A stretch of 4,319 bases of DNA from a virus. Its lineage: Duplodnaviria; Heunggongvirae; Uroviricota; Caudoviricetes. Shown here piece after piece: positions 1-3,019 of the stretch; position 1 is the stretch's first letter; each line of letters starts with the position of its first letter. The position numbers were made by a program, and so were the translations under genes. The stretch is taken from the IMG/VR virus record IMGVR_UViG_2706794664_000005; one strand, given 5' to 3'. The notes under the pieces are model-generated. The model did not search any database. It was not told the DNA's origin and was given only the letters and a program-made list of their open reading frames with translations.

Positions 1-3000
1 GGGTTACCCCCAAACGAATCGGAAAATCGATACTGGAAAAACTCTAACTCGGTGGCCAGTTTTTGTTGACCACTTCACATATGCTGGTGTAGAAAAGCAT
101 ATTGAGCAAATCTATATTGATAATGAGCCAGTACTTGCAGTACCGATTACAGCAGAGGGTGTAGTACCTAAAGAAAGTATTGCAGCGAAGTACCAGAACT
201 ATTTGCAATTAGAAGTACGATTTGGTGGTGACTATACGAGTACTAAAACTCTTGCTGCAAAATATGCTGGTTCGAAATGGACAAATAAATTTCTTGGTAA
301 GGGTATTGTTAGTATCAGTACCGTTATCTTAAAAACTCAAGATTCATTAGAAAATAATATTCTTGTTAATGATCAATTCGCTTTAACTGTAGAAATGAAA
401 GGGCAGGTGATTTATGATTTTGTTGATGGTACTTATAAAGCAAGTAGTAACCCTCCTTCAATTATCTATGATTACTTAACAAATTCAATCTATGGTATGG
501 GTATTGATCCATCATTGATTAATACCGATACGTTTGCAGAAACCGCAGCATATTGTGATGCTTTTGAATATTATGCTAATGGTGCTATCAGTTATCAAAA
601 AACCTATAAAGATAATATTGAAAATATCTGTCAGTCATTTGGCGGCATCATGTATGTACATGCCGGACAAATCTGTATTACCACAGACCGCAAATCGGTA
701 TCCGTAGCCTCATTTGATGAGCGTAACATGGTAGGGGCGGTACAGGTTTCTACTTCTGGCGGTACTGACTACTTCAACGTAGTCGATTGCAAGTTTACTA
801 ACCCTGAATCGATGTACACCACTGACGTAGTACGTATCCCTTCCGATATCACTACGGATGAAGCAGTACAGCATGATGGACAGGTCATAGCATTATCACG
901 CGATTACTCATGGTCATATGATCAAGAGGTGATTGCAAAAATGGCTAACGTTGATGTACTCAAGGCTAAGTATGCCCTGCGTACTATCAGCTTCACCACA
1001 AGTGAAGGTTGGGATCTCGAAGTATGGGATGCGATCAATGTCAGCAATGAAGAACTCGCTATCTCAGGCAAATTTAAAGTACTCAATAAAGATATCAGCA
1101 CCGATCAAGAGAACGTTGGCTATGTAACCATCACGGCAGTAGAAGCACCTGATGCAATGTATGATGGTATTGATCCGGGTATCTGGTCGCCTGGTGGGGT
1201 AATTAACTTCCCTGAACTACAGGTACTACCGCCAACGAACCTACAGGCAGTACGTAAGGGGAATACTACTTCTGGTTCAATCGTGGATCTTACCTGGGAT
1301 GCTTCACCAGATCCGTATCTGCGTGGGTACTATGTTTACTACCGTCTTAACGGTTCCAGTACCTGGACGTATGCGGGGCAGACTGGCGTACAGAAGCTTG
1401 ATTATGAATTATTTGGATTGTCTGATACTGCAAGCTACGACTTTTCGGTAGAGGCTTACAACAACTTAGGGCTGGTATCCAAGAAGCTTTCCCTAACTGG
1501 CATTGTTCCAACATTCAACTTTGCACTACCTGCGGTAACGCGTGTAGTACTGACAAATAAAACAGAATCAGCGTATGTAACTGACTCACCAGATTTCAAT
1601 ATTGCCTGGGATTCACAAAAAGATATCAGAGTGAATAACCGATCATTTAGTGAGTACTTCAAGTATTACGTTATTAAAATCTATGACGGTACTAAATTAG
1701 TAGATACATTCTATACGCAAAGTAATGCCTTTAATTTCACTCTTGAAATGAACCGTCTGAAAGTACGTAAGCCTACCATTGGTATTATCGCACAGGGATT
1801 TAATGATGGTACATATTCAGAGGAAGTGAAAATAACCGTAGAGAATAAACAGTGTGGTTTAGTAGAGGATGTTAGCTTTACGGGTGGTTTTGGTAATTTG
1901 TTTGCTTCATGGACTAAATCTACTGAACGTGATTATGCAGGTGCGATTATCAGTATTGTTAATGGTACTAATACACGTATATTCACCAGTTATGCACCTG
2001 AATTTGATTCAATACCAAACATCACTGATGGTGAGTATAAGGTTAAGATGGGATTCTTTGATGTGTTTGGTACTGATGATATTCAATATTGTCCAGAACA
2101 AACAATCAGTATCAACTCCAAGTACCAGTTTACCGAAGATGATGCAGAGGCAATTAACGGGATTCTTGATTTAGAAGATCGCCTGACTGGTACCATTAAT
2201 GATGCGGTCAAAATTGCCAATAAGAATACCAGTACTGTTATCAGTGCATCAGAGGCACGTACCAATGATAAAATCACTGCCAGTGAGAAAACGTTAAGTA
2301 CTCAGATCACTGGGGTAAATAGTTCCTTATCACAGAAACTTAGCACCGTTGAAAGTACTGCCAATGGTAACAAGGCCAGTATCCAGACACTATCCCAGAC
2401 GGTAACGGATAACAACAAAGCTCAGACTACAGCAGTCTCACAGCTACGTAGTGATGTGAATGGACAGATTGCCACTGTTAACCAGTCAATGAGTACTAAA
2501 GCCGATAAATCTACTGTAGATGCTCAGTACTCACTATCAGTACAGGCTAATGGCACGGTAGCTGGTATGCGTCTTGTTGCGAGTAGTGGAACGAGTAACA
2601 ACTCAGCAATCTATTTCGCTGCGAACAAGTTCATAGTCTCCGGTACTGACACTGCTACTGTAGGTGGTACTGCACCATTTGCCATAGTCAACGGTACTAC
2701 ATACTTGAAGACGGCAATGATACAGGCGGCAAGTATCGGTACTGGTTACATCGCTGATGCGGCAATTACCAATCTAAAACTGGCCTCCGGCTCAGTGAAT
2801 ACATTAAACGTGGTTGATGGTTGTATAACTACAGCCAAAATCTCAAATACTATTCAAAGTACTAATTACGTAGCAAATAAAACAGGCTGGCAAATCAATA
2901 AAGCAGGTACGATCCTAATCAATGGAACGGGTGGTACTGGTAGAATGGTAATCAGTAATAATATTATTCAAATCTATGACAATAATAATACGTTACGTGT

Positions 3001-3019
3001 ACGTATGGGTTTATGGTAA
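1..3019 (+). CDS. Phage tail tip / host specificity protein, lambda gpJ-like (central tail fibre), 5'-partial
   Basis: The reading frame (codons starting at nt 2) is open from the window edge to TAA at 3017..3019. The ORF-track start at 203 is only the first TTG in frame; there is no stop between nt 2 and 203 while both other frames hit stops within the first ~70 nt, so the gene is truncated at the 5' edge. Translation contains [14 protein letters not shown]...AAYCD, matching the lambda J motif as I recall it (...THPRYGMG...YCD...); a fibronectin-III-like segment ([28 protein letters not shown]...[12 protein letters not shown]); a Ser/Thr/Asn/Gln-rich stalk; and a block [20 protein letters not shown]...[12 protein letters not shown] resembling the lambda J block ...HYVAGIGL...FLVAANRIAF.... 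Ends ...[11 protein letters not shown]. Confidence 0.9.

What the first reader, a model, noticed from the sequence alone, without database searches (positions are those of the whole stretch)
2790..3019. Short distal domain on the J-like protein suggests receptor recognition may be delegated to the downstream genes
After the conserved block resembling the lambda J region (DAQYSL...FAANKFIV...) only about 80-90 residues remain (…[47 protein letters not shown]). In lambda the receptor-binding region after the equivalent block is, as I recall, considerably longer. Combined with two small paralogous genes immediately downstream, this supports a model where the J-like protein is a scaffold and the small proteins provide or modulate receptor binding.
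Basis: inference. Interest (0 to 1): 0.5.

Follow-up and report, generated by a model that had tools for sequence, protein, structure and literature searches.

The report
Phage tail tip, separate receptor binders

Summary
The window is a 4.2-kb piece of a Shigella sonnei prophage between an IS911 end and an IS2 end. The J-like central tail fibre gene has lost its first ~120 codons to IS911.

The 76 residues flagged are real. They are not a separate short distal domain: alone they match the last third of Pfam Phage_Tail_Tip (PF09327, E 2.7e-11), and only ~20 residues follow. Lambda J has 160 residues after that domain, including its 132-residue receptor-binding domain (PF12421), which is absent here.

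Across 59 related loci, the last ~80 residues of J stay 60-66% identical alongside the two small genes, while the rest of J drops to ~20%.

It is the published "RBP locus / Specificity Module 1 / receptor-binding fibre" architecture, here in a broken prophage. The "paralogous" claim holds only for a short N-terminal motif and a shared beta-sandwich fold.

The parts
1..77 (.). Terminal 77 nt of IS911, ending in its inverted repeat (ggccagtttttgttgaccacttca at 54-77)
   Evidence: 100% identity to IS911 ends in phage and E. coli records. The same junction occurs in S. sonnei CP026802.1 (L013).
78..3019 (+). J-like central tail fibre gene, 5'-truncated. About 980 of 1100 codons remain; stop codon at 3017-3019.
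   Evidence: Pfam Phage-tail_3, fn3 and Phage_Tail_Tip; PHROG 31 'central tail fiber J', E 3.5e-61. The intact 1100-aa version is in L006, L009 and L012. Window nt 78 corresponds to codon 121.
2144..2494 (+). Ser/Thr/Asn/Gln-rich segment preceding the tail-tip domain; probable trimeric coiled-coil stalk
   Evidence: The PDB sequence match to the F2-pyocin tail fibre 25vf_A (query 740-917 to chain 983-1161, E 2.8e-7) starts within this segment. The coiled-coil to beta-prism switch is described for the F7 pyocin fibre, and HK639 is named among predicted switchers. Assigning that behaviour here is inference.
2495..2776 (+). First stretch of Pfam PF09327 Phage_Tail_Tip (profile 9-106), containing DAQYSL...FAANKFIV
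2777..2866 (+). Inserted repeat patch (…[29 protein letters not shown]…), about 10-residue 'xTxAKI' units; locally hypervariable
   Evidence: The HK639-type J alignment has a 30-column gap that overlaps this patch (ref 1008-1037; patch = ref 1025-1054). It is 60-63% identical between J proteins that are 96-99% identical elsewhere.
2810..2956 (+). Second stretch of PF09327 (profile 87-136 of 139), inside the finding's interval
   Evidence: The 76-aa C-terminal fragment alone gives E 2.7e-11 and 43.8 bits.
2957..3016 (+). Last ~20 residues (…[18 protein letters not shown]), the conserved fibre tip; proposed docking site for the two small proteins
   Evidence: Conserved in HK639, IsaakIselin, IME347, T1 gp33 and DEV gp56-like proteins. 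The docking role is inferred from AlphaFold3 models published for DEV and F7 pyocin.
3020..3176 (+). 157-nt spacer with an AGGAG ribosome-binding site 9 nt before the ORF98 start; no terminator-like site
   Evidence: Sequence. The scan found 0 terminator-like sites in 2900-4319.
3177..3473 (+). ORF98: small beta-sandwich protein, the PyoF11 / DEV gp55 / T1 gp32 position; probable adaptor or co-receptor-binding subunit
3475..4131 (+). ORF218 (Pfam DUF8377): two-domain beta protein, probable receptor-binding protein of the YncD-associated family
4133..4184 (.). Hexanucleotide tandem repeat (ACAATA) x 8.7, intergenic
   Evidence: The only gap in the alignments to other S. sonnei strains lies here, and the next gene starts at offsets that differ by multiples of 6.
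4200..4242 (+). First 43 nt of the next prophage gene (90-aa DUF2730-like), cut by IS2
   Evidence: Homologous gene at L009 10720-10992. Window 4243 corresponds to L009 10763.
4243..4319 (.). Terminal 77 nt of IS2
   Evidence: 100% identity to IS2 ends.

Best explanation
The window holds the host-recognition module of a siphovirus-type prophage of Shigella sonnei. In this strain the module is inactivated by insertion sequences.

The J-like protein forms the tail-tip cone and a trimeric central fibre. The fibre ends about 20 residues after the conserved tail-tip fibre domain and has no lambda-type receptor-binding domain.

The two co-transcribed genes behind it (98 aa and 218 aa) most likely encode virion proteins that dock onto the conserved fibre tip (…LRVRMGLW) through their shared N-terminal beta-hairpin motif. 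Together they would form the distal receptor-binding head. The 218-aa protein would be the main binder and the 98-aa protein an adaptor or co-binder.

By homology to the gene pairs of phages IsaakIselin and IME347, the likely receptor is the TonB-dependent outer-membrane protein YncD or a close analogue.

Shown here: domain content, homologies, fold similarity, synteny, and co-inheritance of the J tip with the two genes. Inferred: physical docking, which subunit binds, and the receptor's identity.
For: Domain content:
- PF12421 is absent, and the last 76 aa belong to PF09327.
- HK639, IsaakIselin and DEV-like fibres have the same ending.

Synteny and expression:
- Of 83 loci with an ORF218 relative, 82 have an ORF98 relative directly upstream.
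- 73 of them have a J-like gene with this C-terminus directly upstream.
- There is no terminator-like site; ORF98's stop and ORF218's start are 1 nt apart.

Co-inheritance:
- Against HK639-type loci, J is ~20% identical over residues 1-935 and ~30% in the tail-tip block.
- The last ~80 residues are 60-66% identical, ORF98 33-39% and ORF218 41%.
- Where J backbones are 88-96% identical (L028, L029, L032), ORF98 is only 43-44% and ORF218 62-64% identical.
- J tips cluster by downstream family: 59-72% within the YncD type, against 40-52% to T1 (FhuA) and DEV-like (LptD) tips.

Homology to characterised loci:
- ORF218 versus bas10_0025: hhalign E 2e-58, 35% identity over 217 of 218 residues.
- ORF218 versus the IME347 216-aa protein: 37% identity.
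- ORF98 versus bas10_0026 and the IME347 102-aa protein.
- Both phages depend on YncD (PMC8594841; PMC6499177).

Fold:
- The ORF98 model hits distal receptor-binding domains of tailspikes and pyocin fibres.

Motif:
- G-phi-x-x-phi-[WYF]-[DN]-x-x-G occurs once in each ~100-aa protein.
- It occurs twice in the ~215-230-aa proteins in S. sonnei, HK639, IsaakIselin and DEV-like; in IME347 and T1 the regex catches only the internal copy (the N-terminal copies, GFEVLND… and GAFIDVNG…, resemble the motif by eye).
- That is 16 matches in 12 proteins, against 0.8 +/- 0.9 in shuffles.

Literature on homologous architectures.
Against: - There is no direct evidence for this module; I could not run a complex prediction or a binding test.
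- At 31-37% identity to the YncD-phage proteins, receptor specificity may differ.
- ORF218 shows no significant sequence similarity to DEV gp54 or to the Oekolampad RBP. The published view is that the FhuA, BtuB, LptD and YncD families are 'unrelated'.
- The motif pattern was written after seeing the sequences.
- Nine loci carry the ORF98/ORF218 pair with no J-like gene within 5 kb.
- In this strain J lacks its first 120 codons, so the module is non-functional as it stands.
Confidence: 0.75

Rival explanations
1. The J C-terminus itself contacts the receptor. The two small proteins are assembly chaperones or folding factors that do not stay in the virion (the role of lambda Tfa or T4 gp57A/gp38-type helpers).
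For: Saha et al. first raised 'binding to it or acting as chaperones' for PyoF11 and PyoF12. DEV gp55 was only uncertainly detected in virions. k-mers in the GpJ tip are associated with receptor class.
Against: - The J tip is the most conserved part of the module, and the small genes are the most variable. That is the reverse of what a receptor-contacting surface should show.
- PyoF11 and PyoF12 are reported in pyocin particles, and DEV gp54 in virions.
- Receptor-escape suppressors map to DEV gp54.
- The Oekolampad locus protein binds LptD directly, and ORF218 shares its fold.
- Neither ORF matches a Pfam tail-fibre assembly family.
Confidence: 0.08
2. Composite site: the J tip and the small proteins together form the receptor-binding surface, so specificity is shared rather than delegated.
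For: J tips cluster by downstream family. The GpJ tip is a specificity-associated feature in receptor classifiers. A locally hypervariable patch sits just upstream of the tip.
Against: The clustering is equally explained by structural compatibility between J and its partner proteins, which is the interpretation given. In the solved Oekolampad complex the RBP alone binds LptDE.
Confidence: 0.12
3. The two small genes are unrelated cargo (superinfection exclusion, morons) or decaying relics with no role in adsorption.
For: The prophage is degraded in this strain. Superinfection-exclusion genes do sit at this locus in T1-like phages (cor in T1; signal-peptide proteins bas10_0024 and IME347_112).
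Against: - ORF98 and ORF218 have no signal peptide or lipobox, unlike bas10_0024 and IME347_112.
- Both are intact. The exact ORF218 sequence is indexed in 768 blocks of the assembly collection.
- Synteny with J is nearly universal.
- Both models have fibre-tip-like folds.
Confidence: 0.04

Closest known systems
YncD-associated 'bona fide RBP locus' of Drexlerviridae (IsaakIselin bas10_0026/0025; IME347 102-aa/216-aa genes)
   Same: Homologous ~100-aa and ~216-aa proteins (31-37% identity, full length). The J tip is 59-60% identical. Same N-terminal motifs.
   Different: In those phages the pair is convergent with J and followed by a signal-peptide protein, probably for superinfection exclusion. 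Here and in HK639 the pair is co-directional with J and no such gene follows. The J backbone and the rest of the phage are unrelated.
Lambdoid phage HK639 gp23 (J), gp24, gp25
   Same: Same order and orientation: J, then ~100 aa, then ~213 aa. 42% identity for both small proteins. J tip 62% identical.
   Different: The J body is only ~20% identical. HK639's genes overlap J's stop, whereas here there is a 157-nt spacer. HK639's J lacks a ~30-residue segment that overlaps the repeat insertion.
Pseudomonas phage DEV receptor-binding fibre gp56-gp55-gp54 (PDB 9ZE4; PMC12892993)
   Same: Best PDB sequence match to the J C-terminus (E 3.3e-17). It is followed by 99-aa and 223-aa genes with the same hairpin motifs. 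Weak reciprocal PHROG links connect ORF98 and gp55. gp54 is the genetically supported RBP for LptD.
   Different: A podovirus short fibre of 429 aa, not a tail-tip hub protein. gp54 and ORF218 have no significant sequence similarity. The receptor is LptD.
F-type pyocin Specificity Module 1 (last 60 aa of PyoF10, plus PyoF11 and PyoF12)
   Same: A central fibre whose C-terminus co-varies with two small downstream genes. Both are essential and found in particles, and AlphaFold3 predicts that they cap the fibre. The J stalk matches the F2-pyocin fibre (E 2.8e-7).
   Different: A bacteriocin, not a phage. I had no PyoF11 or PyoF12 sequences, so I did not test homology to ORF98 and ORF218. The targets there appear to be LPS-related.
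Oekolampad (Bas18) RBP bound to LptDE (PDB 9RPT; PMC12685063)
   Different: 8% sequence identity, 254 aa, a different receptor, and classed as an unrelated sequence family.
Lambda GpJ
   Same: Phage-tail_3 hub domain, FN3/Ig-type domains and PF09327 tail-tip fibre domain in the same order.
   Different: Lambda adds a 160-residue C-terminal extension with the PF12421 LamB-binding domain, and it is followed by lom and stf rather than a small-RBP pair. Pairwise similarity is limited to the hub region (E 8e-6).

Membership tests
Lambda-type GpJ with built-in receptor-binding domain | C-terminal Ig_GpJ_C domain (PF12421) after the tail-tip fibre domain | tested here: not met
   No PF12421 match in the full protein or in its last 76 or 174 residues at E <= 1. 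Lambda J gives E 4.5e-74.
Lambda-type GpJ with built-in receptor-binding domain | Hub (Phage-tail_3), FN3/Ig and Phage_Tail_Tip domains in order | tested here: met
   PF13550 at 199-353, fn3 at 410-490, PF09327 at 832-925 plus the C-terminal stretch. PHROG 31 'central tail fiber J', E 3.5e-61.
Central fibre with delegated RBPs (RBP locus / Specificity Module 1 / DEV RBF) | Fibre ends ~20 residues after PF09327 with the conserved …GW…NG…GR…LRVxxG tip | tested here: met
   PDB matches to DEV gp56 and T1 gp33 C-termini.
Central fibre with delegated RBPs (RBP locus / Specificity Module 1 / DEV RBF) | Adjacent pair of genes of ~100 aa and ~215-230 aa | tested here: met
   ORFs of 98 and 218 aa. The same sizes occur in HK639, IsaakIselin, IME347, T1 and DEV-like phage. 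Synteny in 82 of 83 loci.
Central fibre with delegated RBPs (RBP locus / Specificity Module 1 / DEV RBF) | Fibre C-terminus co-inherited with the two small genes, independently of the fibre body | tested here: met
   J body ~20% identical but last ~80 aa 60-66% identical against HK639-type loci. Tips cluster by downstream family.
Central fibre with delegated RBPs (RBP locus / Specificity Module 1 / DEV RBF) | The small proteins are virion components bound to the fibre tip | not testable with these tools
   No multimer prediction or proteomics was available. Reported for DEV gp54 (with gp55 uncertain) and for PyoF11/PyoF12.
YncD-associated RBP family | More than 30% identity over more than 99% of length to family members (criterion of bioRxiv 10.64898/2026.04.02.716166) | tested here: met
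   35% identity over residues 2-218 to bas10_0025. 37% over 1-218 to the IME347 216-aa protein. Caveat: the paper does not say in its text which gene of the locus it calls the RBP.
YncD-associated RBP family | Infection depends on YncD | not testable with these tools
   Known only for IsaakIselin and IME347.
Cor-type / lipoprotein superinfection-exclusion proteins at the J-downstream locus | N-terminal signal peptide or lipobox | tested here: not met
   ORF98 starts MAQGLQCWNAAG… and ORF218 starts MAGFEVYNSAG…, with no hydrophobic leader. Compare bas10_0024, MKKIMLAMALVAPLNAMA.
Tail fibre assembly chaperones (Tfa / Caudo_TAP type) | Match to a Pfam or PHROG tail-fibre assembly family | tested here: not met
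   Only function-unknown PHROGs (7961, 2427, 4524) and no Pfam-A hit above threshold.

The most novel reading that the evidence does not exclude
The two small proteins may together supply exactly three copies of one unit: a G-phi-x-x-phi-[WYF]-[DN]-x-x-G beta-hairpin followed by a ~100-residue beta-sandwich. ORF98 would contribute one copy and ORF218 two. The units would form a pseudo-threefold, asymmetric head that plugs into the threefold J tip.

The same hairpin 'plug' and …LRVxxG 'socket' would be shared by otherwise unrelated RBP families (YncD, FhuA and LptD types; siphoviruses, N4-like podoviruses, F-pyocins). That would make it a general plug-and-play docking code for retargeting phages.

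The papers I read model the complexes with AlphaFold3 but, as far as I saw, do not describe a three-unit motif rule.
Probability: 0.35. Interest if true: 0.55.

Novelty: new member of a known kind. Interest (0 to 1): 0.3.

Why it matters
The general principle is already published for T1-like phages, DEV and F-type pyocins: a J-like fibre acts as scaffold, and exchangeable small receptor-binding proteins are encoded next to it.

What this case adds is modest:
- It places a widespread Shigella sonnei prophage and the lambdoid HK639 group in the YncD-associated family. That gives a testable receptor prediction.
- It shows, on a fresh set of 59 loci, that the exchange boundary lies about 80 residues before the end of J.
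- It points to a short hairpin motif shared across module families that could guide engineering of receptor-swapped phages or tailocins.

Tried and rejected
- Direct BLASTP of ORF98 against ORF218 gave nothing significant (E 5.4). hhalign of ORF98 against each half of ORF218 aligned only the hairpin motif.
- PDB sequence searches failed for ORF98, ORF218, the ORF218 profile and the N-terminal peptide. They returned only chance antibody hits or nothing.
- BLASTP and hhalign of the small proteins against single DEV-like gp55 and gp54 sequences were not significant beyond the N-terminal motif. I therefore do not claim sequence homology of ORF218 to DEV gp54.
- Source hunting: no near-identical DNA in the phage, plasmid or E. 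coli collections apart from the IS ends. The IS911/J junction 30-mer was absent from the species-representative genomes. An exact-protein look-up solved it.
- Sliding-window Spearman correlation of J identity with ORF98 and ORF218 identity was dominated by clade structure and uninformative. I replaced it with region-by-region identities.
- A global MAFFT alignment of lambda's C-terminus with the others forced meaningless matches. I used Pfam coordinates instead.
- A text search for 'J-like tail tip protein' found no papers.
- The 54-aa ORF at 3071-3235 has no family hit and overlaps the ORF98 start. I treat it as spurious.
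Full report
**What the window is.**
- The 4319-nt window has one long + strand reading frame open from nt 2 to a stop at 3017-3019. Two further + strand ORFs follow: 3177-3473 (98 aa) and 3475-4131 (218 aa).
- The first 77 nt are 100% identical to the end of IS911 and the last 77 nt to the end of IS2.
- The segment between them (78-4243) is 95% identical to metagenomic contigs that carry an intact tail module with a 1100-aa J-like gene.
- It is 99.7-99.9% identical to Shigella sonnei chromosomes and S. sonnei-derived viral contigs.
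- S. sonnei CP026802.1 has the same IS911/J junction (L013, 99.86% identity over nt 1-4243).
- The window is therefore a piece of an S. sonnei prophage that sits next to mipA and gapA. IS911 has removed the first ~120 codons of J. IS2 has cut the gene after ORF218.

**Checking the observation.**
- The quoted sequence is present at the stated coordinates.
- The large protein is a J-type central tail fibre. It has Pfam Phage-tail_3, fn3 and Phage_Tail_Tip (PF09327) domains, and it matches PHROG 31 'central tail fiber J' at E 3.5e-61.
- In lambda J, PF09327 spans 845-972. A further 160 residues follow, including the receptor-binding domain PF12421 at 1001-1132.
- The window protein has no PF12421 match.
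- The flagged 76 residues are not a distinct short distal domain. Scanned alone, they match PF09327 profile positions 87-136 of 139 (E 2.7e-11).
- The conserved domain is split here by a ~30-residue repeat insertion, and the protein ends ~20 residues after it.
- HK639 J, IsaakIselin J and a DEV gp56-like fibre end in the same way.
- The last 55 residues recur in 194 phage records from Ralstonia, Burkholderia, Escherichia, Vibrio, Klebsiella and others.
- The correct statement is that this fibre stops where lambda's built-in receptor-binding extension would begin.

**The downstream genes.**
- ORF98 and ORF218 belong to function-unknown PHROGs 7961 and 4524. ORF218 relatives carry the recent Pfam family DUF8377.
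- The pair is not paralogous over its length (BLASTP E 5.4). Profile comparison aligns only the first 14-19 residues.
- Both predicted structures are confident beta-sandwich models (pLDDT 85.6 and 83.9). Each begins with a lower-confidence N-terminal hairpin, and ORF218 repeats the hairpin-plus-sandwich arrangement from residue ~105.
- There is no terminator-like site between J and the pair. ORF218 starts 1 nt after ORF98's stop, which is consistent with one transcript and coupled translation.

**Related loci.**
- Phage HK639 has the same order: J, a 100-aa gene and a 213-aa gene, each small protein 42% identical to its window counterpart.
- Among 83 loci that encode an ORF218 relative, 82 have an ORF98 relative immediately upstream. 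In 73 a J-like gene with this C-terminus lies directly upstream, and one further locus has it convergent.
- Region-by-region identities show a mosaic boundary. Against HK639-type loci, J is ~20% identical through residue 935 and ~30% in the first tail-tip block. The last ~80 residues are 60-66% identical, higher than ORF98 (33-39%) and ORF218 (41%).
- Where J backbones are 88-96% identical, ORF98 falls to 43-44% and ORF218 to 62-64%.
- The fibre tip and the two genes therefore move as one cassette. The tip is the conserved element and the small genes are the variable ones.

**Link to characterised systems.**
- The ORF218 family aligns end to end with bas10_0025 of phage IsaakIselin: hhalign probability 100%, E 2e-58, 35% identity. 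It is 37% identical to the 216-aa protein of phage IME347.
- ORF98 matches their ~100-aa neighbours.
- Both phages depend on YncD.
- Maffei et al. matched alleles of this 'bona fide RBP locus' to receptors.
[quoted passage not shown] It interprets the GpJ tip as a compatibility element.
- By that criterion ORF218 falls in the YncD family.
- J tips cluster accordingly: 59-72% identity within YncD-type modules, against 40-52% to T1 and DEV-like tips.

**Structural and mechanistic precedents.**
- The best PDB sequence match to the J C-terminus is DEV gp56 (9ZE4, E 3.3e-17), followed by T1 gp33.
- In DEV, gp56 is followed by gp55 (99 aa) and gp54 (223 aa). Suppressor mutations in gp54 restore growth on an lptD mutant. 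AlphaFold3 places one gp55 and one gp54 on the tip of the gp56 trimer.
- In F-type pyocins, the last 60 residues of the central fibre co-vary with PyoF11 and PyoF12. Both are essential, present in particles and predicted to cap the fibre. Homologues were noted in T1, N15, LIT1 and LUZ7.
- Foldseek against viral models finds ~220-290-aa uncharacterised proteins of N4-like Acinetobacter and Pseudomonas phages.

**A cross-family motif.**
- The motif is G-phi-x-x-phi-[WYF]-[DN]-x-x-G. It sits at the N-terminus of every ~100-aa protein.
- It sits at both the N-terminus and residue ~101-115 of the ~215-230-aa proteins in four of the six modules. These are the S. sonnei, HK639, IsaakIselin and DEV-like modules. 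In IME347 and T1 the regex catches only the internal copy. Their N-terminal copies resemble the motif by eye.
- That is 16 matches in 12 proteins, against 0.8 +/- 0.9 in shuffles. The pattern was written after inspecting the sequences, which biases the count.
- Three such units per module facing a trimeric fibre suggests a pseudo-threefold cap. This is inference.

**Most likely mechanism.**
- J builds the tip cone and a trimeric stalk.
[quoted passage not shown] That this J does the same is inference.
- ORF98 and ORF218 would dock on the conserved tip through their hairpins. ORF218, helped by ORF98, would bind an outer-membrane protein, probably YncD.
- In this strain the module is dead because J is truncated. 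Other S. sonnei strains carry intact J or J broken by other insertions.

**Verdict.** This is a new, uncharacterised and here inactivated member of that kind.

Noticed in passing
window 1-77 and 4243-4319; L010, L011, L013, L014: The prophage fragment is bracketed by IS911 and IS2 ends. In other S. sonnei assemblies the same J gene is interrupted at different positions by IS elements: two insertions in 53G (L010), one in L011 and one in L013. ORF98 and ORF218 stay intact.
   Followed up: partly
window 4133-4184: Hexanucleotide tandem repeat (ACAATA) x 8.7 between ORF218 and the next gene. The only alignment gaps against other S. sonnei strains fall here, and the next gene's start shifts by multiples of 6 nt between strains. 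It looks like a copy-number-variable repeat.
   Followed up: partly
window 2777-2866 (J residues 926-955 of the read-through): Repeat patch of ~10-residue 'xTxAKI' units. It is 60-63% identical between J proteins that are otherwise 96-99% identical (L006, L027), and HK639-type J lacks a 30-residue stretch that overlaps it. This suggests local recombination or length variation of the fibre just above the tip.
   Followed up: partly
L076-L080, L086, L088, L090, L093 (viral contigs of 50-113 kb): An ORF98/ORF218-like pair sits between a DNA methyltransferase gene and a DNA polymerase gene, with no J-like C-terminus within 5 kb. In these large elements the pair is not next to the tail genes.
   Followed up: partly
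L009 1-600 and 11517-11951: The intact prophage encodes an 883-aa protein with a Peptidase_S74 (self-cleaving chaperone) domain upstream of the tail tube gene. It also encodes a SegE-type GIY-YIG homing endonuclease after the lysozyme gene. I found no close relative among deposited phage genomes.
   Followed up: no
window 3071-3235: A 54-aa ORF in the J-ORF98 spacer overlaps the ORF98 start. Some assemblies call it a gene, but it has no Pfam or PHROG match. It is probably not a gene.
   Followed up: partly
window 4200-4242: Start of a 90-aa DUF2730-like gene (MDIGAILALVISG…), cut after 43 nt by IS2.
   Followed up: no
L003 (Escherichia phage DCP80, PQ671644.1): The best full-length J match among deposited phages is a 1252-aa hypothetical protein (30% identity over 93% of the query). 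The 141-kb record is labelled Straboviridae/Gaprivervirus, an unexpected place for a lambda-type tip protein. The classification or the record may need a second look.
   Followed up: no
L005 4099-4431 (-) and L095 4044-4382 (+): The YncD-dependent phages IsaakIselin and IME347 carry a third gene at the locus: a ~110-aa protein with a signal peptide (MKKI…NAMA). It is a candidate superinfection-exclusion factor. The S. sonnei and HK639 versions lack it.
   Followed up: no
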